This document shows positions 4,043 to 14,540 of a DNA stretch of 64,000 nucleotides, one piece after another. Position numbers and translations under genes: made by a program. The stretch lies in IMG/VR virus record IMGVR_UViG_3300034375_010899, positions 6,310 to 70,309 of that record. The stretch is one strand, 5' to 3'. Each line of letters starts with the position of its first letter. The stretch's first letter is position 1. The notes below the pieces were generated by a model that was not told the DNA's origin, did not search any database, and was given only the letters and a program-made list of their open reading frames with translations. This stretch comes from a virus.

Positions 4043-4231
4043 ATGCCTACTGCCTCCGAAGTTCATCAGTTCGATCTTGAAATTGCACCTGCACTTCGTG
4101 AATTTATGTGCAACTATCACACCGATCTGAATGATTGCGTCGATTGGGTTTGTGACGTGTTTAACATTGATGCCACCGATTTTATCATCGATCGTGTTGC
4201 TGATGAGTTTGAAGAATTCTTCGGTTCGTGA
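4043..4231 (+). CDS. small acidic hypothetical protein
   Basis: ATG 4043 downstream of the -10 box TATTGT (4013); D/E-rich. Confidence 0.7.
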   Translation: MPTASEVHQFDLEIAPALREFMCNYHTDLNDCVDWVCDVFNIDATDFIIDRVADEFEEFFGS

Positions 4232-4236
4232 CACCT

Positions 4237-4265
4237 AAGGGGGATTAATCCTTCCCCCTTTTTTT
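4237..4265 (+). terminator. rho-independent terminator
   Basis: AAGGGGGA/TCCCCCTT stem followed by a T run. Confidence 0.75.
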
Positions 4266-6741: not shown

Positions 6742-6824
6742 GTGCCAATCGGGGGAGTGCCCACCATTCCCCCCAAAGGGCACCGTGATCGACTATTGTT
6801 ACGAAGTAACGAACAAAGGGAACC
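6742..6824 (+). repeat. 83-bp promoter cassette, copy 2
   Basis: Direct repeat of 5230-5312. Confidence 0.95.
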
Positions 6825-6838
6825 TCACTGACACTCAA

Positions 6839-7738
6839 ATGCAAAATCTCCACCTCGAACACCCTGAAGATACGGTTCTCTCGGGTGACCTTAAAGCACT
6901 TGATTGTCTGCTCCATGAGGGTCACCTCTCCGTCAAACTTGACGGAGCACCTGCAATCGTTTGGGGGATTAACCCCGCCAATGGTCTTCGTTTCGTAGGA
7001 ACTAAGGCAGTTTTTAACAAGGTTAAAATCCGAATTGCACACTCTCATGAAGAAATTGACCAGTTCTATTCGGGTGAGGTTGCGGTTATTCTGCATTGCT
7101 GCTTTGATTGTCTTCCTCACACCGATTCTATCATCCAAGGTGATTTTATTGGGTTTGGCGATAGCGATGAGTTTACTCCCAACACGATCACTTACAAGTT
7201 TGGTGAGGTAATCGATCAGCAAATCATTATTGCTCCCCATACCGAATACTTCGCAGAAAATGACCTTCGTGACGCTGTATGTTACCCTTTGGTTGATAAC
7301 CTTTCTTCCACTGAAACGTGTTACTTTCTGAAACCAGAGTGCTACGTTCAGCACAGTGATTCCAACCAGTTTCATGACCTTAAGGAAGTTATTGGTTTCG
7401 CTAAGCAAATGGCACAACTTGTGAATTTTGCAACTCCTAAGGAAGCAATCAAGATCACAAGGCAACTCAACAAGTGCATTCGTGAGGGTCAGGAAATCGA
7501 TGCAAAAGACTTCGATTGTGATCACCTTCTGATTGAATTCTGGAAACTCGTTAAGTCCATCAAAGAAGATGCTCTATTCCTCTGCCGTAACTTGGGTCCT
7601 GCTGCTTACATTGGTTATGATCGAATTGATGCCGAAGGTTACGTCTTTTCTAATGCCTTGGGGTCAATTAAGTTGGTAAATCGTGAAGTGTTCAGTATGG
7701 CAAACTTCAACAACTCTAAGTTCTCTGTTTCTAGTTAA
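6839..7738 (+). CDS. ligase-fold nucleotidyltransferase-like protein (DUF6267-like)
   Basis: HLEHPED N-terminus; SVKLDG (KxDG motif I), IIQGDFI (III), EGYV (IV), IKLV (V); start ATG 6839. Confidence 0.7.
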   Translation: MQNLHLEHPEDTVLSGDLKALDCLLHEGHLSVKLDGAPAIVWGINPANGLRFVGTKAVFNKVKIRIAHSHEEIDQFYSGEVAVILHCCFDCLPHTDSIIQGDFIGFGDSDEFTPNTITYKFGEVIDQQIIIAPHTEYFAENDLRDAVCYPLVDNLSSTETCYFLKPECYVQHSDSNQFHDLKEVIGFAKQMAQLVNFATPKEAIKITRQLNKCIREGQEIDAKDFDCDHLLIEFWKLVKSIKEDALFLCRNLGPAAYIGYDRIDAEGYVFSNALGSIKLVNREVFSMANFNNSKFSVSS

Positions 7739-7798
7739 CTTAGAGTCTTGATTGTCATCATTGGTGACAAGGCACATTATACATCAAAAGGAGACCCT

Positions 7799-7954
7799 AT
7801 GTCAAGTCTGAATCAGAAATCTTGGATGAGTGACTCTACTCTAGACCTGTTCATTAAGCATCATGAAGAGTCCGAAGAATTCTGGACTCAAGTTAACAAG
7901 ATGGCAGAAGAGTATGAGTTGCCGACAGACTACATTCTGATGGAATTCGTGTGA
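7799..7954 (+). CDS. small hypothetical protein
   Basis: AAGGAG RBS, ATG 7799; ends ...YELPTDYILMEFV. Confidence 0.65.
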   Translation: MSSLNQKSWMSDSTLDLFIKHHEESEEFWTQVNKMAEEYELPTDYILMEFV

Positions 7955-8080
7955 AGACACCCTGAGAATGTTTCAGGGGCATTGTAGCGCCTTCTAGAGG
8001 CATCTCTGGGCGTTTCTTTATACTTAAGTCAGCCGCCCGTGTGCCAATTCCCGAACTGGACCCAAATGCCCTGAAACCCC

Positions 8081-8109
8081 TTGACCTGCCCCCCCAAAAA
8101 TCCTATATT
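8081..8109 (+). promoter_or_regulatory. sigma70-type early promoter
   Basis: TTGACC-17bp-TATATT upstream of the ArdA-like gene. Confidence 0.7.
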
Positions 8110-8169
8110 GGTTTCAACGGGGGGAGGGAAACGAACCCCGCCTCACTGCTCACCTCTTAACTAACTCAA

Positions 8170-8607
8170 ATGACCGTGACTCTGACTGCAAACTATCGTG
8201 AAATGCTTGCCGCTAACACTGTGAGCAAGATCGACGAATTGCTGGATGAGAACTATGAACTGGCAGCAATGCTAGAGTTCATTGATGAGCAAAATGAGTC
8301 CGATTTCGTGACTTATTATGAAGAATATGTGCGCTGTGGTGAAGCAATCGGTTATGAAGCGGTTGACGCTTTGATCGAAGAAATGGGGTGCATCTCCTAC
8401 ATTCAGGACTGCGACGATCGCTACCGTGGACATTATCAATCTGAGGCAGATTTTGCCGAAGAATATACCGTTGAAGTTTACGGTGACGTTCCTTCCTATG
8501 TTGTTGTCGATTGGCAAGCAACTTGGGACACCAATCTTCGCTATGATTTCACTGCCTGCAATGACGGTGATACCTATTGCCCCATCCACATTTTCTCCGA
8601 TAACTGA
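8170..8607 (+). CDS. ardA: ArdA-like antirestriction (DNA mimic) protein
   Basis: Very acidic; C-terminal YRGHYQSEADFAEEY...VPSYVVVDWQATWD matches the ArdA pattern Y.G.y.s..dfA.e....p...yiDye. Confidence 0.7.
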   Translation: MTVTLTANYREMLAANTVSKIDELLDENYELAAMLEFIDEQNESDFVTYYEEYVRCGEAIGYEAVDALIEEMGCISYIQDCDDRYRGHYQSEADFAEEYTVEVYGDVPSYVVVDWQATWDTNLRYDFTACNDGDTYCPIHIFSDN

Positions 8608-8651
8608 TCACTAAGGGTTGCAGAGTTCCCTACATCAACTCTGCCTTTCTT

Positions 8652-8703
8652 CTCTGCTCTGGTGACACTTAACGGTGTGAGAGTTCGATTCTCTCAGCAG
8701 GGC
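8652..8703 (+). ncRNA. tRNA-like mini-RNA (acceptor stem and T arm, truncated D/anticodon region)
   Basis: CTCTGCT/AGCAGGG 7-bp stem abutting the GAGAG-TTCGATT-CTCTC T arm. Confidence 0.5.
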
Positions 8704-8736
8704 AAATCCCCAAAACGTTGTTTCTTTCTTTCTCAA

Positions 8737-8907
8737 ATGTTCGATCGTTCGACCTCTATCGGTATGCTTCGCCAAGGTGCTAACGGAACTCAAATTCTTG
8801 AAATTCTTGACACTTTGGTTGATGCAATCGTAGAAGAGAACATTAACGATTGCGCTGCACATTATGCGGCAATTTCGTCTCCTACTCTTGAGCAGATTGC
8901 ATTCTGA
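8737..8907 (+). CDS. small hypothetical protein
   Basis: ATG 8737; MFDRSTSIGMLRQGANGTQILEILDTLV. Confidence 0.65.
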   Translation: MFDRSTSIGMLRQGANGTQILEILDTLVDAIVEENINDCAAHYAAISSPTLEQIAF

Positions 8908-8935
8908 TTTCTCTGTAACTTTTACCTGAATTCCT

Positions 8936-9112
8936 ATGGCACTCTGGTCGCAAGCAACTGACATCAAAACCCGCCAAACTATCTGGGTGGGGACTAATGT
9001 TTCAAAGGGCAAATCTCAAGCGAATTCCCATACCCGTGGTTGGAAAATCGATGGTTACCCTACTGCTGAACTTGCAGGGTTGCATACAGACTACGTTGGG
9101 AAGCAAGGTTAA
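8936..9112 (+). CDS. small hypothetical protein (58 aa)
   Basis: MALWSQATDIKTRQTIWVGTNV...AELAGLHTDYVGKQG; not in the track. Confidence 0.6.
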   Translation: MALWSQATDIKTRQTIWVGTNVSKGKSQANSHTRGWKIDGYPTAELAGLHTDYVGKQG

Positions 9113-9149
9113 CTCTTTCCCATACATCTCCCATTCGTTGACACTTAAG

Positions 9150-9329
9150 ATGATTTCAACTCCTATCTCTCTCAGCAACATTTTCTACGTTGCGCTAGAT
9201 CGCACCGCACGCACAGGTGACGAATTCTTCGCCATTTCTGTGGGGCGCTGTTACTTTGGAATCTATCCTGCTGTCAACGGAGTGGACATTTGTTGGGGCA
9301 TTCTAGACGATAAGGGATGCCTAGATTGA
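9150..9329 (+). CDS. small hypothetical protein
   Basis: ATG 9150 inside track ORF 8997..9329. Confidence 0.55.
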   Translation: MISTPISLSNIFYVALDRTARTGDEFFAISVGRCYFGIYPAVNGVDICWGILDDKGCLD

Positions 9330-9374
9330 TCGGGTTCCTTTATACTCTCATTCATTCCTAAACGACACTCACTG

Positions 9375-9611
9375 ATGACCGACATTTCGACACTTGCTGC
9401 TGCATCCTCCACTGACCTTCTCATCGCTGAGATTCAAGGGAAGGTGAAGGTTACTCGTTTGCCGCAACGTAAACCCCGCCGCAGTGAATTGGTGATGAGT
9501 CGTGTAGGCGGTGCTGGCACCCGTTGGAATAACTCTACGGGTGGCAATGGTAGACTCAAAGCAGGGCAACTCCGCCCTGAAGAGATTGCACTTAAGTCTG
9601 CCCTTCGTTGA
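9375..9611 (+). CDS. small basic hypothetical protein
   Basis: Track ORF; GKVKVTRLPQRKPRR. Confidence 0.65.
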   Translation: MTDISTLAAASSTDLLIAEIQGKVKVTRLPQRKPRRSELVMSRVGGAGTRWNNSTGGNGRLKAGQLRPEEIALKSALR

Positions 9612-9625
9612 CACTTAGCGATGCA

Positions 9626-9656
9626 CGAACGAATGGGGATATTCCTTATTCGTTCG
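9626..9656. terminator. strong hairpin closing the early island
   Basis: CGAACGAAT...ATTCGTTCG inverted repeat. Confidence 0.5.
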
Positions 9657-9857
9657 GAGCATTCGTGATAGGCAGTTAGAAAAAAGTTTGCCCCTTAAGT
9701 ATAAGGCGGCCCTCGTATATTATTTTCTTAAGGTACCCCTAAGCTATAAAAGTATGCCCCTAAGAGATCTATATCACTCTAAGACTTTTTTCAAAAGACC
9801 TCGAAGGGTATCAAATAAAATAAAAAAAATCCCGGAAAAATTTTTTGGTATGTAGAG

Positions 9858-10013
9858 ATGAGTAAACGTAAACCGTATTGGAGTTTTTGGAAAGTTATTT
9901 TTGCGGGGTGGATCATAAGATATCCTGAAAGATTTTTTGATGTATTCCGATTTCCGCTGATGGTCTTATTTGGGGCAGTTGTAGTGATGATATATAATGC
10001 ATTGAAACAATAA
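9858..10013 (+). CDS. small membrane protein (51 aa)
   Basis: MSKRKPYWSFWKVIFAGWIIRYP... followed by a TM helix. Confidence 0.65.
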   Translation: MSKRKPYWSFWKVIFAGWIIRYPERFFDVFRFPLMVLFGAVVVMIYNALKQ

Positions 10014-10022
10014 GAATTCAAT

Positions 10023-10217
10023 ATGTTAGAAAAGGTATATCACATATACGCAAAGGAGAAATGTTTGTATCACTCACTCAAGGAAGAGGAGTTTTACAAG
10101 ACTTGGAACACTCTACTTACACTTGTAGATTTGACTTCAAGCGAGTATCAGAAAGAGGATTTAAATTACGAAGAATTAATCGTAAATAAAAAATCAGTAT
10201 CTGAGTCTTCGTTTTGA
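10023..10217 (+). CDS. hypothetical protein
   Basis: Track ORF; YHIYAK.KCLYHSL.EEEF. Confidence 0.7.
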   Translation: MLEKVYHIYAKEKCLYHSLKEEEFYKTWNTLLTLVDLTSSEYQKEDLNYEELIVNKKSVSESSF

Positions 10218-10274
10218 AGGGGTTTACAAAAGATAAATAACACGATAAAATTGATCTGAAGGATTTTATTACTC

Positions 10275-11075
10275 ATGGCAAAAGGATTTACAGTTAAAGC
10301 AAAACCTCCCACAGCACAGGAATCTGGGGATTGGGATATTGATGCAATCAAGGCAAGAATGCGAGGTAAGAGCATTGTGTTCTGTCTACCAGGACGTGGA
10401 TGTTCTTTTACATTCTTGAAGGCATTTGTTCAACTCTGTTTTGATCTTGTACAAAATGGATGTGGAATTCAAATTTCTCAAGATTATTCATCAATGGTAA
10501 ACTTCGCACGTTGTAAGTGTCTTGGTGCAAATGTTCTGAGGGGTCCGAAACAGATTCCCTGGGATGGTAAGTTGCAATATGATTATCAACTATGGATTGA
10601 TAGTGATATTGTTTTCAACACTGAGAAGTTTTGGCAACTTTGTGATTTGGCATTCCCTGCTGAAGCAATTGATGAAGAGGGAGTTGTTGATGAATCGAAG
10701 AAGCGTGGTATTGTTGCTGGATGGTATGCTACAGAGGATGGGCGCACGACTTCTGTTGCTCATTGGTTGGAGGAAGATGATTTCCGTAACAATGGTGGTG
10801 TGATGAATCATGAAACCGTTGATAGTATGGGTAAGCGTAAGAAACCATTTACTGTTGATTACACAGGATTTGGTTGGGTATTGATTCAGAAGGGAGTCTT
10901 TGAGAATCTTGAATATCCTTGGTTTGCTCCGAAGATGCAAGTTTTTGAATCTGGTGCAGTACAAGATATGTGTGGAGAGGATGTTTCCTTCTGTCTCGAT
11001 GCAAAAGATCAGGGATATGAGATTTGGTGTGATCCTCGCATTCGCGTTGGGCACGAAAAGACTCGTGTTATCTGA
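10275..11075 (+). CDS. GT-A-fold glycosyltransferase-like protein
   Basis: NFARC, LWIDSDIVF (DxD), TGFGWVLI, GED..FC, VGHEK motifs. Confidence 0.75.
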   Translation: MAKGFTVKAKPPTAQESGDWDIDAIKARMRGKSIVFCLPGRGCSFTFLKAFVQLCFDLVQNGCGIQISQDYSSMVNFARCKCLGANVLRGPKQIPWDGKLQYDYQLWIDSDIVFNTEKFWQLCDLAFPAEAIDEEGVVDESKKRGIVAGWYATEDGRTTSVAHWLEEDDFRNNGGVMNHETVDSMGKRKKPFTVDYTGFGWVLIQKGVFENLEYPWFAPKMQVFESGAVQDMCGEDVSFCLDAKDQGYEIWCDPRIRVGHEKTRVI

Positions 11076-11077
11076 TA

Positions 11078-11230
11078 ATGTTTAATATTCTCTACAAGGG
11101 AGAAATAATGTACACAGGGCTTTCGTATGAAGAATGTGCGGAAGTCCTTTCAGAACTCTCATATGAATTTTATGAGGGTAGTGAAATTGATCCGAATGAA
11201 CTTAAATTGGAGGAAATTGTAAATGGCTAG
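11078..11230 (+). CDS. small acidic hypothetical protein
   Basis: MFNILYKGEIMYTGLSYEECAEVLSELS... Confidence 0.6.
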   Translation: MFNILYKGEIMYTGLSYEECAEVLSELSYEFYEGSEIDPNELKLEEIVNG

Positions 11231-11369
11231 GCGACCTTCTTTTAGCGGTGGAGATCTTATTGAATCAAAACCCAAGAAAACACGGCAGGGTTCTGGTAAA
11301 CACACCAAGTATGCCGCAACGTCTCGTAATAAAGCACGTAAGCGTAGTAGAGGGCAAGGGCAGGGTTAA
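11223..11369 (+). CDS. small basic protein
   Basis: ...PKKTRQGSGKHTKYAATSRNKARKRSRGQG; GGAGG RBS. Confidence 0.7.
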   Translation: MARRPSFSGGDLIESKPKKTRQGSGKHTKYAATSRNKARKRSRGQGQG

Positions 11370-11430
11370 TCCTTATATCCGGTCATCCAAAGTCTCTCAT
11401 ATGAGGCAAAAGTAGAAGGGAAAATCCAAA

Positions 11431-11886
11431 ATGAAGGAAATTGAAGAACATATCCAGAATTGGATCCTCAAAATATCAAAATTAAGACCCGAATTGGGTA
11501 ATTTTGCGATTTGCCCCTTCTCTTCAACTGCTTCTTATAAGATTGTACTATCAAATATTGACGATATTATGCCTTTAAAGGGGTATGATGTCGTCATTTT
11601 TGTTGTTGAGGACTATCTAGATGCCTCTGCAATCCAATTGTGGTGTGAAATCTACAATAACATCTACAAAGACTACATATTTTTAGAGGATTGTGGTCGT
11701 TATAAAACCTTTATACAAGGTATTCAAACAAATAATGGCAAATATAATTTAATTTTATGCCAATCTAGAGAAAAATTAGAAAAATCGAGAGAAAATCTAT
11801 CAAAAACTGAATATTACGAACATTGGGACAAGGAAATGCTTGAGGAAATTTTGGGTAAGGACCATAAAATACCTCAAAAGGGATAG
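11431..11886 (+). CDS. hypothetical protein (weakly DUF1415-like)
   Basis: LGNFAICPF motif; C-terminal YYEHW. Confidence 0.65.
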   Translation: MKEIEEHIQNWILKISKLRPELGNFAICPFSSTASYKIVLSNIDDIMPLKGYDVVIFVVEDYLDASAIQLWCEIYNNIYKDYIFLEDCGRYKTFIQGIQTNNGKYNLILCQSREKLEKSRENLSKTEYYEHWDKEMLEEILGKDHKIPQKG

Positions 11887-11933
11887 AAACCCCTTAAAAA
11901 GTTCTGTTTTACCCTCAAAAAAGGAACAAACAG

Positions 11934-12194
11934 ATGGCAATTCAACCAAATCCAGATAGGGACGTAAATTATATGAAAGAAGTTTGGGGAACAACGAGTC
12001 TAATTACTGATTATTGGAGCAAAACTCCTGGAGACTCGAAAAAACAGATGCTCAGGGAGATTAATAACGATGATATTACTCCAAAAAAGCATGATTTTTC
12101 TCTTCAGAATGAAATTCATGAGAAAATTCGCAATGACAATGATTATGATGATTGGTCTTATGGAACTGAACCATTTTATGGTCAAAATCCTTAA
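11934..12194 (+). CDS. hypothetical protein
   Basis: Track ORF with AAGGA RBS. Confidence 0.7.
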   Translation: MAIQPNPDRDVNYMKEVWGTTSLITDYWSKTPGDSKKQMLREINNDDITPKKHDFSLQNEIHEKIRNDNDYDDWSYGTEPFYGQNP

Positions 12195-12200
12195 TAAATA
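12193..12200 (+). promoter_or_regulatory. late promoter
   Basis: AATAAATA upstream of g25. Confidence 0.6.
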
Positions 12201-12224
12201 ACTTGAGACTATATCTTTTCATAA

Positions 12225-12626
12225 ATGCCTGTAGAGAGAATTAGTAAATCATTTAAGGATATTAGTTTATCTCTTCAGGTCAATCCATTGACTTATGATA
12301 TTTTAGCGATTAAAAATGAAACCGCGATTGCAAGATCGGTTCGTAATCTGGTTTTAACTTTGCCAGGTGAAAGGTTTTTTAATCCAGATGTTGGATCTGA
12401 TATTGGTAGATCTTTATTTGAAAATATTGATTCAATTTCTGCAGATGGTATTAAATCCCAAATTGAAAATACAATTAGAAATTATGAACCAAGAGTTTCA
12501 TTAATTGATGTTATTGTAAATCCAATTTATGATAATAATGAATTTAACGTTACTATAAAATATAATATTATAGGTATAGATGTTCCACCACAAAAGTTAG
12601 TTTTTGTATTACAGCCAACCCGATAA
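12225..12626 (+). CDS. g25: baseplate wedge subunit gp25
   Basis: AIARSVRNLVLT.PGERFFNP..GS, I..YEPRV. Confidence 0.92.
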   Translation: MPVERISKSFKDISLSLQVNPLTYDILAIKNETAIARSVRNLVLTLPGERFFNPDVGSDIGRSLFENIDSISADGIKSQIENTIRNYEPRVSLIDVIVNPIYDNNEFNVTIKYNIIGIDVPPQKLVFVLQPTR

Positions 12627-14540
12627 ATGGCAATAGTAAATTTTACAGACTTAGATTTTGATCAATTAAGGCAATCTATTAAGGATTACCTAGGATCAAG
12701 TTCAGATTTCACGGATTATGATTTTGAAGGATCGAATTTGTCGGTCTTGATAGATATTCTTGCATATAATACGTATATTTCCTCGTATAACGCTAATATG
12801 ATTAGCGGTGAGGTTTTTATTGATAGTGCAACACTAAGAGAAAATATTGTTTCCCTTGCAAGGAATATTGGATATGTTCCAAGATCAAGAACTGCAGCAA
12901 GAGCAAATATATCCTTTTTTGTTGATGTTTCAAATTACGCATCAATTCCAAGAGTTATAACCTTAAATAGGGGTATAGTTTGTACTACGGAATCTGAGTT
13001 TAGTGGAGAAAGTTATACATTTGTTACTACAGAAGATATTTCAGTTCCTGTGGTAAATGGAGTTGCATTTTTTGAAAATATTGAAGTTTATGAAGGAACT
13101 TTAGTAAGTTCAGAGTTTTTCGTAAATTCTCAGATACCAAACCCACCACAAAGATATATTATTGATAATGTAAATGTTGACATTAGCACTTTATCAGTTC
13201 GTGTATATACTAGTCCTTTATCCAGTCTTTCTACAAAATATTCTTTAGCACAGGATATTATTGATGTTGGATCGGATTCCAAGATTTTCTTTATTCAAGA
13301 AATACAAAATCAGTACTATGAAATAATCTTTGGTGATGGTATTTTTGGTGATAAATTACAAGAATCTAATTTGATTAATGCATCGTATGTGGTTTCGAAT
13401 GGATCATTGGGAAATAATCTTTCACAATTTGCATTTGCTGGTAAGTTAGACTCTAATATTGGAATTATTACTCGCGGAATCTCAAATATTGTAACAAACA
13501 CCAATTCATTTGGTGGATCTGAGATTGAATCTGTACAATCAATTAGAAATTACGCACCAAAATACTACTCTTCTCAAAATAGAGCAGTAACCGCGAATGA
13601 TTTTAAGGCAATTATCCCAAGAATATATCCAGAACTGGAGTCTGTTAATGTTTTTGGTGGTGAAGACTTAAATCCACCAAGATATGGAAAGGTTTTTGTT
13701 GCAGTTAAACCACAGAGTGGTACTTTTATATCTTCAAGTGCTGCTCAAAATTTGAAAAATCTTCTAAGAAAATATACAGTTGCTGGTATTGTAGTTGAAG
13801 TTATTGATTTGAAAAACTTATTCATTGAACTGGATACTACAATTTATTATAATGAAAATTTAACTAATAATGATCAAGTACCAAAAAATAAAGTAATATC
13901 CAATTTAGAAAAGTACTCAAAATCTCTTGAATCTGATAGTAGTGATATTAGATTTAAGTATAGTAAAGTTTTAAATATTATTGACGAAAGCGATGCTTCT
14001 ATTACTTCAAACATTACTAAAGTCTCTTTGAGAAGAGATTTTAGGGCATCTATTAATCAATTTGCAGAATATGAAATTTGCTTTGGTAACGAACTTTTTG
14101 TAAGAAATAGAGATGGGTTTAATATAAAAACATCTGGATTTAGTGTTGCTGGAATTAGTGGAACGGTTTACATTTCTGATAAACCAAATGCAAATTTAAA
14201 AACGGGAAGTTTATTCTTATTCAAAATATCAACAGAATCTGATGAACCTGTCCAGGTTAGACAATCTATTGGAACTGTAGATTATGTGAAAGGGGAAATT
14301 ATATTGAATCCAATTAACATTGTTTCTACGATTATAGATAGTGGAGAATCTATTGTGGAAATTTCTGCCACACCAAAATCAAATGATGTTATTGGTTTAC
14401 AGGATCTTTATTTACAGCTTGATACCAATAAAATAACCGTTACTGCAGTTCGTGACAATATTTCTTCTGGAAATGATATTTCTGGAAGTAATTATATTAC
14501 AACCTCAAGTTATACGAATGGAAAATTAATTAGAGATTAA
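12627..14540 (+). CDS. g6: baseplate wedge subunit gp6
   Basis: LDFDQLR, DYDFEGS, DSATLRE, QNRAVTANDF motifs; synteny. Confidence 0.93.
   Translation: MAIVNFTDLDFDQLRQSIKDYLGSSSDFTDYDFEGSNLSVLIDILAYNTYISSYNANMISGEVFIDSATLRENIVSLARNIGYVPRSRTAARANISFFVDVSNYASIPRVITLNRGIVCTTESEFSGESYTFVTTEDISVPVVNGVAFFENIEVYEGTLVSSEFFVNSQIPNPPQRYIIDNVNVDISTLSVRVYTSPLSSLSTKYSLAQDIIDVGSDSKIFFIQEIQNQYYEIIFGDGIFGDKLQESNLINASYVVSNGSLGNNLSQFAFAGKLDSNIGIITRGISNIVTNTNSFGGSEIESVQSIRNYAPKYYSSQNRAVTANDFKAIIPRIYPELESVNVFGGEDLNPPRYGKVFVAVKPQSGTFISSSAAQNLKNLLRKYTVAGIVVEVIDLKNLFIELDTTIYYNENLTNNDQVPKNKVISNLEKYSKSLESDSSDIRFKYSKVLNIIDESDASITSNITKVSLRRDFRASINQFAEYEICFGNELFVRNRDGFNIKTSGFSVAGISGTVYISDKPNANLKTGSLFLFKISTESDEPVQVRQSIGTVDYVKGEIILNPINIVSTIIDSGESIVEISATPKSNDVIGLQDLYLQLDTNKITVTAVRDNISSGNDISGSNYITTSSYTNGKLIRD

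What the first reader, a model, noticed from the sequence alone, without database searches (positions are those of the whole stretch)
8652..8703. 52-nt tRNA-like mini-RNA immediately downstream of the ArdA-like gene
Seen: a 7-bp acceptor-type stem CTCTGCT(8652-58)/AGCAGGG(8696-8702) with one G-U, stacked directly on a canonical T arm GAGAG-TTCGATT-CTCTC. Between them there is only CTGGTG (a D-loop-like GG, no D stem) and a short ACACT-TAAC-GGTGT hairpin. No CCA is encoded. A GCAGAGTT/AACTCTGC hairpin (8620-8644) precedes it. The architecture resembles tRNA-mimic domains (tmRNA TLD, mascRNA) rather than a decoding tRNA. Inference: an RNase P/Z processing signal for the early transcript, or a decoy for tRNA-targeting defences.
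Basis: partly seen in the sequence, partly recalled or inferred. Interest (0 to 1): 0.7.

Follow-up and report, generated by a model that had tools for sequence, protein, structure and literature searches.

The report
Cut-down leucine tRNA in a cyanophage
A 52-base tRNA-shaped element behind an anti-restriction-like gene of a cyanobacterial virus is what remains of a leucine tRNA gene that lost its D and anticodon arms; it cannot decode, and at most it may still serve as a cutting signal for tRNA-processing enzymes.

Summary
At 8652-8703 (+) a 7-bp helix (one G-U) stacks directly on a canonical T arm, with a 5-bp/4-nt hairpin and no D or anticodon arm. ARAGORN and Rfam find nothing.

It is not a new RNA class. 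It derives from a class II tRNA-Leu gene:
- The 22-mer covering the hairpin's 3' strand plus the T arm matched 118 metagenome sites. ARAGORN called 98 of them, 97 as tRNA-Leu.
- The 21 nt 5' of the T stem align to cyanophage tRNA-Leu(UAA); 0 of 1000 shuffles reach the observed score.
- 4 of 80 related loci carry a full tRNA-Leu(UAA) just downstream of the same gene.

Loss of about 33 nt (tRNA positions ~8-40) explains the shape.

One point is unexplained. The closing helix and the C discriminator match none of the 98 metagenomic or 109 viral leucine tRNAs compared, and the T arm joined to this 3' strand matched no other record in the virus or genome collections scanned.

Only one other contig, nearly identical here, carries the element, so covariation cannot be tested. 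In three RNA libraries, contigs run across the predicted 3' end.

Most likely it is a deletion remnant that RNase P could still cut. A selected processing role is possible, and a decoy role has no support. Interest is modest.

The parts
8170..8607 (+). ArdA-like gene (145 aa) immediately upstream
   Evidence: ORF. Pfam PF07275 ArdA, E 6.1e-05, 24.1 bits, below the 27-bit cut-off. The S-PM2 homologue is annotated as an anti-restriction protein in RefSeq.
8620..8644 (+). Upstream hairpin GCAGAGTT-(9 nt)-AACTCTGC followed by CTTTCTT; its 3' strand repeats the CTCTGC of the mini's 5' strand
   Evidence: Sequence. Fold -8.9 kcal/mol. Present in the MFE of 8608-8740. Not called as a terminator by the scan, whose loop limit is 8.
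8652..8658 (+). 5' strand of the acceptor-type closing helix (CTCTGCT)
   Evidence: Pairs with 8696-8702. Unlike the 5' acceptor strands of the cyanophage tRNA-Leu(UAA) genes printed.
8659..8664 (+). CTGGTG linker, homologous to the 3' strand of the anticodon stem plus positions 44-45 of tRNA-Leu; it also equals the TGGTG of tRNA positions 8-12
   Evidence: Covariance-model alignment to the L030 tRNA-Leu. Alignments. Upstream strings of metagenomic tRNA-Leu genes.
8665..8678 (+). Hairpin ACACT-TAAC-GGTGT, the variable arm of a class II tRNA-Leu
   Evidence: Pair probabilities 0.78-0.99. Anchored alignment to 73 viral tRNA-Leu(UAA) segments: 0 of 1000 shuffles reach the observed score.
8679..8695 (+). 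T arm GAGAG-TTCGATT-CTCTC
   Evidence: Sequence. Together with GGTGT it forms a 22-mer whose ARAGORN-called metagenome matches are tRNA-Leu in 97 of 98 cases.
8696..8703 (+). 3' strand of the closing helix (AGCAGGG) plus discriminator-position C; no CCA
   Evidence: Sequence. Absent from the 118 metagenome sites with the tRNA-Leu 22-mer. The T arm joined to this strand matched nothing in genome contigs and only L082 in viral contigs.
8737..8907 (+). Downstream small ORF (56 aa), same strand
   Evidence: ORF, read from the internal ATG. Homologues at 47-58% identity in 10 viral loci, none of them with the mini. No Pfam family.

Best explanation
The element is an internally deleted tRNA-Leu gene.

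What was lost and kept. A class II leucine tRNA of the kind that T4-like cyanophages carry lost about 33 nt (tRNA positions ~8-40): the D arm, the 5' strand of the anticodon stem and the anticodon loop. The deletion probably ran between the short TGGTG repeats that many of the tRNA-Leu genes compared have at positions 8-12 and 42-46. What remains is a 7-bp acceptor-type helix, the 3' strand of the anticodon stem as a linker, the variable-arm hairpin and an intact T arm.

What it can still do. It cannot decode, and with C rather than A at the discriminator it should not be leucylated. It lies on the coding strand between the ArdA-like gene and a small ORF. No promoter is predicted between them, so it would be co-transcribed with both. 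By structure, the 12-bp acceptor/T-arm stack is the part of a tRNA that RNase P recognises. If anything still happens to it, the expected event is an RNase P cut between U8651 and C8652. That cut would be a passive by-product of its origin and not a selected function.

Shown: the anatomy, the tRNA-Leu origin and the restricted distribution.
Inferred: the deletion mechanism, co-transcription and RNase P cleavage.
For: 1. The tRNA-Leu signature. GGTGTGAGAGTTCGANNCTCTC (the window's 8674-8695 with two T-loop positions left free) matched 118 metagenome sites. ARAGORN of them: 97 tRNA-Leu and 1 tRNA-Ser. Of the 20 uncalled sites, 11 are cut by contig ends and 9 look like 3' fragments.

2. Homology beyond the T arm. 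Model R1's best non-self hit is the tRNA-Leu(UAA) of L030/L031, at 20.5 bits over model positions 8-44. The best viral tRNA-Leu(UAA), in L334, is identical at 31 of 38 aligned columns. An anchored global alignment of the 21 nt 5' of the T stem against 73 distinct family segments scored 11; 0 of 1000 shuffles reached that, and their maximum was 8.

3. Position. 4 of 80 ArdA-like loci (L022, L030, L031, L071) have a full tRNA-Leu(UAA) about 100-110 nt after the ArdA-like gene and no other tRNA. The other 76 have none.

4. TGGTG stands at both tRNA positions 8-12 and 42-46 in several of the tRNA-Leu genes printed; L030 has TGGTG and TGTTG.

5. Restricted distribution. The element occurs in the window and in one contig (L047 = L082) only, among 80 ArdA loci and 10 small-ORF loci and in four exact-pattern scans of viral contigs.

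6. RNA-library contigs of three runs (X15, X16, X18) bridge 8703/8704 without a break.
Against: - The closing helix CTCTGCT/AGCAGGG and the discriminator C do not look like a leucine tRNA. Of the 118 metagenome sites, 113 have A at the discriminator position; the other 5 are mostly uncalled fragments. All the viral family members listed start with G-rich acceptors such as GGGAG or GCGAG.
- Against the syntenic L030 gene, 5 of the 7 pairs differ on both sides yet still pair.
- The T arm joined to this 3' strand matched nothing in 185,579 species genomes and only L082 in IMG/VR.
- Neutral decay would not leave the T arm and variable arm intact while replacing both acceptor strands compensatorily. 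So either the parent was an unusual tRNA or the helix was remodelled under selection.
- Given a T arm, a stacked 7-bp helix arises by chance in about 2% of cases (0.02 motifs against 1.06 T arms per shuffle).
- The intergenic stretch 8603-8728 is identical in L082, while the sequence downstream differs by about 2.5%. This is a weak hint of constraint.
Confidence: 0.55

Rival explanations
1. Selected tRNA-like processing or stability element. After the deletion the minihelix was kept, and its closing helix remodelled, because RNase P (5' side) and possibly RNase Z plus the CCA-adding enzyme (3' side) cut the early polycistronic transcript here. That would separate the ArdA-like mRNA from the downstream message, or release a small stable RNA. 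The closest analogues are plant mitochondrial t-elements and mascRNA.
For: - A perfectly paired 7-bp helix stacks on an intact T arm even though neither strand resembles a tRNA-Leu acceptor.
- U stands at -1 (8651) and no CCA is encoded, as in the full phage tRNA-Leu genes.
- 126 nt around the element are invariant between the two carriers.
- Earlier scan notes e1-6096607 and e1-6096598 report conserved RNAs in other freshwater cyanophages that end in a tRNA stub where relatives carry tRNA-Leu. These are unchecked leads; I could not compare sequences.
Against: - Only two near-identical carriers exist, so there is no covariation to test.
- The element is absent from the other 79 ArdA loci and the 10 other small-ORF loci.
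- RNA-library contigs of three runs run across the predicted 3' cut.
- The tRNA-like register is not the MFE.
- C at +1 is a poorer RNase P context than G (recalled knowledge).
Confidence: 0.28
2. Decoy or sponge. The processed mini-RNA (acceptor helix, long variable arm, T arm) mimics the parts of class II tRNAs that proteins read without the anticodon. It would titrate a tRNA-targeting defence nuclease or another tRNA-binding factor, and so act together with the neighbouring anti-restriction-like gene.
For:
- It retains exactly the acceptor, variable arm and T arm.
- Phage tRNAs are known to counter tRNA-targeting defences (search listing and abstract of PMC10264068).
Against: - No call supports it.
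- The anticodon loop, the target of most known tRNA-directed defences, is missing.
- The bacterial Schlafen studied in PMC13056530 cleaves the anticodon arm of several class I tRNAs and not specifically class II ones (passages read).
- The element is confined to one lineage.
- There is no evidence for a discrete small RNA.
Confidence: 0.07
3. One half of a split or permuted tRNA. The 5' part (acceptor 5' strand, D arm, anticodon stem-loop) would be encoded elsewhere and joined or annealed in trans.
For: Homology to tRNA-Leu starts close to the anticodon loop/stem border. The genome record is only about 33% complete.
Against: - The 3' strand already has a partner in cis.
- There is no D-arm or anticodon-loop motif next to a CYCTGCT in the 70,309-nt record. 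The one D-arm-like match near an AGCAGGG (9543-9566) lies inside an ORF.
- ARAGORN finds no tRNA piece in the window or in the 6.4 kb upstream.
Confidence: 0.03
4. Chance resemblance in an intergenic spacer.
For: The z-score of the fold is only -1.75. The bare motif appears in 6 of 300 shuffles, which is not negligible over very many windows.
Against: The 22-mer is diagnostic of tRNA-Leu and is collinear with further homology in the correct register. A tRNA-Leu also occupies the same spot in relatives.
Confidence: 0.02

Closest known systems
tRNA-Leu(UAA) genes of T4-like cyanophages (e.g. L030 2040-2124, L071 2027-2112, L334)
   Same: - Anticodon-stem 3' strand, variable arm with a TTAA-type loop, GT junction and T arm: 31 of 38 columns identical to L334.
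- The T stem GAGAG/CTCTC is identical to L071's.
- No encoded CCA.
- Position just downstream of the ArdA-like gene in 4 of 80 loci.

   Different: - No D arm, and no anticodon stem 5' strand or loop.
- 52 nt instead of 85-86 nt.
- The closing helix is unrelated to the family's acceptors.
- C instead of A at the discriminator position.

Truncated or decayed tRNA genes and tRNA gene fragments in phage and prokaryote genomes
   Same: It is a non-decoding piece of a tRNA gene in a mosaic, fast-changing region. The Sullivan et al. 2010 table notes a tRNA pseudogene in a T4-like phage, and the text links tRNA genes with non-syntenic regions (PMC3037559, passages read).
   Different: - att-type 3' fragments keep the native 3' acceptor strand. 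The 9 uncalled full-context fragments mostly look like that.
- Here both acceptor strands are present, are complementary, and are not those of a tRNA-Leu.
tRNA-like processing signals: plant mitochondrial t-elements, mascRNA/MALAT1 3' element, minihelix model substrates of RNase P (recalled; not read here)
   Same: An acceptor helix stacked on a T arm inside or at the end of an mRNA-type transcript, with no decoding function and no encoded CCA.
   Different: - No sequence relationship: Rfam gave no match at E<=10.
- Cleavage has not been shown.
- These elements are eukaryotic or organellar.
- Ours keeps a class II variable arm.
tmRNA tRNA-like domain
   Same: An acceptor helix plus a T arm, with a D-loop remnant and no D stem.
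   Different: - No G3-U70 pair (C3-G70 here).
- No tag reading frame or pseudoknots.
- ARAGORN's tmRNA search is negative, and there is no Rfam tmRNA hit.
Armless mitochondrial tRNAs (nematodes, mites, spiders)
   Same: Size of about 50 nt and loss of canonical arms (search listings only).
   Different: - Those tRNAs keep the anticodon arm and decode. This element lacks it; its only internal hairpin has a 4-nt loop.
- ARAGORN in mitochondrial mode makes a call only by misreading the T loop as an anticodon loop.

Membership tests
Canonical tRNA (Rfam RF00005 / ARAGORN) | Cloverleaf with a D arm and an anticodon arm carrying a 7-nt loop | tested here: not met
   ARAGORN: 0 genes in the window, also at the relaxed -ps80 setting. 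Rfam: no tRNA hit at E<=10 in 8500-8850. The sequence shows only a 4-nt-loop hairpin between the acceptor helix and the T arm.
Canonical tRNA (Rfam RF00005 / ARAGORN) | 7-bp acceptor helix coaxial with a 5-bp T stem and a TTCRANY loop | tested here: met
   the only such motif in the window, found in 6 of 300 shuffles.
tRNA-Leu (class II) gene or derivative | Long variable arm followed by a leucine-type T arm | tested here: met
   Of the 98 ARAGORN-called sites carrying the 22-mer, 97 are tRNA-Leu. Anchored alignment: 0 of 1000 shuffles reach the observed score.
tRNA-Leu (class II) gene or derivative | A73 discriminator and a leucine-type acceptor stem | tested here: not met
   C at 8703. AGCAGGG occurs at none of the 118 metagenome sites and in none of the viral family members listed. 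That A73 is a LeuRS identity element is recalled knowledge.
tRNA-Leu (class II) gene or derivative | D arm (GGAATYGGTAGAC) and a UAA/UAG/CAA anticodon loop | tested here: not met
   Absent from 8652-8703. No credible copy elsewhere in the 70,309-nt record.
tmRNA tRNA-like domain | G3-U70 alanine identity pair, tag ORF and pseudoknots | tested here: not met
   C3-G70. ARAGORN's tmRNA search is negative. No Rfam hit.
RNase P/Z-processed tRNA-like elements (t-elements, mascRNA) | Cleavage by RNase P at the 5' end and RNase Z at the 3' end, with CCA addition | not testable with these tools
   Only Logan contigs of RNA libraries were available. They cannot show ends, and three of them bridge 8703/8704.
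att-site tRNA 3' fragment | Native 3' acceptor strand and discriminator of the target tRNA retained | tested here: not met
   The 3' strand differs from all tRNA-Leu genes compared. Whether an integrase is present was not examined.

The most novel reading that the evidence does not exclude
The cut-down tRNA-Leu is not junk. It would be a phage small RNA of about 55 nt that RNase P and RNase Z release from the early ArdA-like transcript and that receives a CCA end. Its closing helix would have been rebuilt so that LeuRS no longer reads it. It would act as a mimic of class II tRNAs without an anticodon, either as a processing or stability module or as a sponge for a host tRNA-directed factor. 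It would also be one instance of a recurrent shrinking of tRNA-Leu into minihelix RNAs in freshwater cyanophages.
Probability: 0.1. Interest if true: 0.75.

Novelty: new variant of a known kind. Interest (0 to 1): 0.33.

Why it matters
If it is a remnant, it is a clean example of how phage tRNA genes die. A short-repeat deletion removes the decoding half and leaves the acceptor/T-arm half that processing enzymes still recognise. It also warns annotators that tRNA finders will miss such pieces.

If the remodelled closing helix reflects selection, it would be a bacterial-virus counterpart of organellar t-elements or mascRNA, sitting beside an anti-restriction-like gene. Together with the unchecked earlier notes on tRNA stubs in other freshwater cyanophages, that would point to repeated re-use of tRNA-Leu as a structural RNA module.

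Tried and rejected
**Gene finders.**
- ARAGORN and Rfam give nothing.
- The only ARAGORN call appears in metazoan-mitochondrial mode: 'mtRNA-Ser(cga)' at window 8656-8717. It reads the T loop as an anticodon loop and has no meaning for a phage.

**Search for a full-length parent with the same closing helix.**
- Exact or degenerate patterns in viral contigs returned only L082. The same in genome contigs returned nothing.
- A gapped pattern requiring the same acceptor and T loop gave two hits. One is a tRNA-Tyr in a phage tRNA array (L084), the other a coding stretch (L085). Both were selected by construction and have unrelated variable arms, so neither is a parent.

**Weak model R1 hits.**
- L055 (S-PM2), 13.1 bits, lies inside an ORF.
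- L118, L120 and L121 (10.8 bits, E 0.66) and L004/L015 were not examined further and are treated as chance.

**Local, unanchored alignment.** The non-T part against the viral family was not significant: 154 of 500 shuffles reached the observed score. Only the register-anchored test was significant.

**Split-tRNA idea.** No 5' half was found.

**Own promoter.**
- The scan predicts no + strand promoter between 8109 and the element.
- A weak candidate that I read by eye (8577-8605, 8 of 12 matches) is not conserved in L082.

**RNA data.**
- No contig from the four RNA runs covers 8625-8663.
- Contigs start at 8668 (X15, X16) and 8664 (X18).
- One X17 contig ends at 8624 and runs into adapter sequence.
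- Depth is low, no DNA run was laid beside them, and a filter removes some records. So the hole and these ends cannot be read as termination, processing or graph branching.

**Synteny from the tRNA side.** Only 2 of 101 viral tRNA-Leu(UAA) sites with at least 700 nt upstream have an ArdA-like gene there. The association recurs but is not general.

**Literature.** Searches for a described cyanophage mini-tRNA or minihelix found none. This covers the open-access library only, and supplements were not seen.

Full report
**Observation.**
- CTCTGCT pairs with AGCAGGG: 7 bp with one U-G.
- This helix abuts the T arm GAGAG-TTCGATT-CTCTC with no spacer.
- Between the 5' strand and the T arm lie CTGGTG and a 5-bp hairpin with a 4-nt loop (ACACT-TAAC-GGTGT).
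- Position 8703 is C and no CCA follows.
- A separate 8-bp hairpin lies at 8620-8644.

ARAGORN finds no tRNA or tmRNA in the window or in the 6.4 kb of the record upstream of it. Rfam has no match at gathering score in the window and no tRNA-type match at E<=10 around the site.

A motif scan of my own looked for a T stem-loop with TTCRANY plus a directly stacked 7-bp helix. It finds this one site in the window, and at least one site in 6 of 300 dinucleotide-preserving shuffles.

Energetically the tRNA-like register (-17.1 kcal/mol) is about equal to a register shifted by 3-4 nt (-17.6). The shift is possible because CTCTG is tandemly repeated at 8652-8661. The fold z-score is only -1.75.

**Context.** The window is part of a 70,309-nt IMG/VR record, about 33% complete. 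It belongs to a T4-like cyanomyovirus: all 75 phage records with DNA matches to 7500-10500 are Synechococcus or Prochlorococcus phages or marine viruses, at no more than 80% identity.

The element lies on the coding strand.
- It starts 44 nt after the stop of a 145-aa ArdA-like gene. The Pfam ArdA match has E 6e-05 and is below the family cut-off. The S-PM2 homologue is annotated as an anti-restriction protein.
- It ends 33 nt before a 56-aa ORF of no known family.
- No promoter or terminator is predicted between these genes.

**Distribution.** I fetched 80 viral loci that encode an ArdA-like relative and 10 further loci that encode a relative of the small ORF. Covariance model R1, built from the element, finds it only in the window and in L047.

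Four exact-pattern scans of viral contigs return only that same contig, L082 = L047.

L082 is 92.8% identical to the window over 5 kb. A mosaic breakpoint lies at the ArdA stop: the ArdA 3' half is heavily diverged, while everything from 8603 onward is about 97.5% identical. The 52/52 identity therefore says little. Other mismatch-free runs of 279 and 264 nt occur in the same alignment. There is no material for a covariation test.

**Origin.** Three independent lines show that the core is a leucine tRNA.

1. The 22-mer GGTGT-GAGAG-TTCGANN-CTCTC was scanned over the metagenome collection. ARAGORN of these sites: 97 are tRNA-Leu (80 UAG, 9 CAA, 5 UAA, 2 CAG, 1 GAG) and 1 is tRNA-Ser. Of the 20 uncalled sites, 11 are cut by contig ends and 9 are partial genes.

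2. Homology extends 5' of the T arm in the correct register. R1 aligns model positions 8-44 to the tRNA-Leu(UAA) of L030/L031 at 20.5 bits. In the tRNA arrays searched, from S-PM2 and other phage contigs, tRNAs match only at the T arm. The one exception is a tRNA-Tyr that was itself selected by pattern for this acceptor helix. All of these score 17.7 bits or less.
   - A scan anchored on the D arm and anticodon loop fetched 109 distinct viral tRNA-Leu(UAA) sequences, so it was blind to the 3' half. Among them the best, L334, is identical at 31 of 38 columns to 8658-8695.
   - An anchored global alignment of the 21 nt before the T stem scores 11. No shuffle out of 1000 exceeds 8.
   - A plain local alignment of that part alone was not significant (154 of 500 shuffles).

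3. Four of the 80 ArdA loci (L022, L030, L031, L071; L030 and L031 are identical here) carry a full tRNA-Leu(UAA) about 100-110 nt after the ArdA-like gene. No other tRNA was called in the 80 loci. Seen from the tRNA side the association is uncommon: 2 of 101 sites.

**How the shape arose (inference).** In the full genes the order is acceptor, TGGTG (positions 8-12), D loop, anticodon arm, TG(G/T)TG (positions 42-46), variable arm, T arm, acceptor. Loss of the roughly 33 nt between or including these short repeats gives exactly the element's order and its length of 52 instead of 85 nt.

**What does not fit a simple relic.** The closing helix and the discriminator are not those of any leucine tRNA that I compared.
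- Of the 118 metagenome sites, 113 have A at the discriminator position; the other 5 are mostly uncalled fragments. None has AGCAGGG.
- The viral family members listed begin with GGGAG, GCGAG or similar.
- Against the syntenic L030 gene, 5 of 7 pairs are changed on both sides yet still pair.
- The T arm joined to this 3' strand matched nothing in the species-genome collection and only L082 in the viral collection.

So either the parent was an odd tRNA that has not been sampled, or the helix was rebuilt after the deletion. The data cannot tell which.

**Expression.**
- Twenty public runs hold the stretch or a part of it, six of them RNA libraries.
- I laid contigs from four RNA runs. In three of them a contig covers the 3' two-thirds of the element and continues into the downstream genes without differences inside the element. 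These contigs therefore bridge the predicted 3' processing site.
- Contigs cannot show ends, strand or level, and RNA libraries can contain DNA.
- The uncovered part (8625-8663) and the contig ends are recorded under Tried and rejected.

**Function.** The element cannot decode. With C at the discriminator it should not be a LeuRS substrate (recalled identity rule).

Its acceptor/T-arm stack is the RNase P recognition module, U stands at -1, and no CCA is encoded, as in the full phage genes. If transcribed with its neighbours it is a plausible RNase P substrate. I rate the readings as follows:
- Remnant whose processing, if any, is incidental: 0.55.
- Selected processing or stability element, or small RNA: 0.28.
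- Decoy: 0.07.
- Split tRNA half: 0.03.
- Chance: 0.02.

Earlier scan notes describe conserved RNAs in other freshwater cyanophages that end in a tRNA stub where relatives have tRNA-Leu. They keep the selected-element reading alive, but they are unchecked and I could not compare sequences.

A scan of all 2.31 Mb of fetched loci found short-gap versions of the motif nine times. Seven lie inside full tRNAs called by ARAGORN. The two free-standing ones are this element (L047) and one site in a metagenome contig (L127).

**Verdict.** It is a new variant of a known kind, a truncated tRNA gene or tRNA-like minihelix, and of modest interest.

Noticed in passing
window 8361-8607 versus 8603-13220 (aligned to L082): A sharp mosaic breakpoint lies at the stop codon of the ArdA-like gene. 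Its 3' half is heavily diverged between the window and L082, while everything downstream is about 97.5% identical.
   Followed up: partly
L022 1940-2030, L030 1935-2035, L071 1915-2025, L073/L075/L080 downstream of the ArdA-like gene: Several copies of a palindromic motif of the type ATCTCGTCGAGAT fill the spacer between the ArdA-like gene and the tRNA-Leu(UAA), or stand there without a tRNA, in related phage contigs. The window has none.
   Followed up: no
window 6785-7738 (+): A 317-aa protein of Pfam DUF6267 (E 2e-71) contains a KLDG motif near its N-terminus. This is reminiscent of nucleotidyl-transferase (ligase) motif I; the motif reading is recalled and was not tested.
   Followed up: no
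L127 minus strand 4192-4243 (metagenome contig): A second free-standing motif of about 52 nt, with a 7-bp helix stacked on a T arm and only 21 nt between them, and no ARAGORN call. The contig also carries a tRNA-Leu(UAG).
   Followed up: no
window 9690-9775: An ORF-poor AT-rich spacer contains three copies of CCCCT(T)AAG-type words spaced about 35-40 nt apart.
   Followed up: no
window 8170 and 8624: RNA-library contigs run into Illumina adapter sequence exactly at the ATG of the ArdA-like gene (X16) and at the 5' foot of the 8620-8644 hairpin (X17) (table 7). These may mark RNA fragment ends; each rests on a single contig.
   Followed up: no
L084 1-2000 (viral contig): A phage tRNA array of 17 genes includes a tRNA-Tyr(GUA) with a C1-G72 acceptor, CCCTGCT/AGCAGGG. 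This is the same helix as in the element, but the contig was found by a pattern that required that helix.
   Followed up: partly
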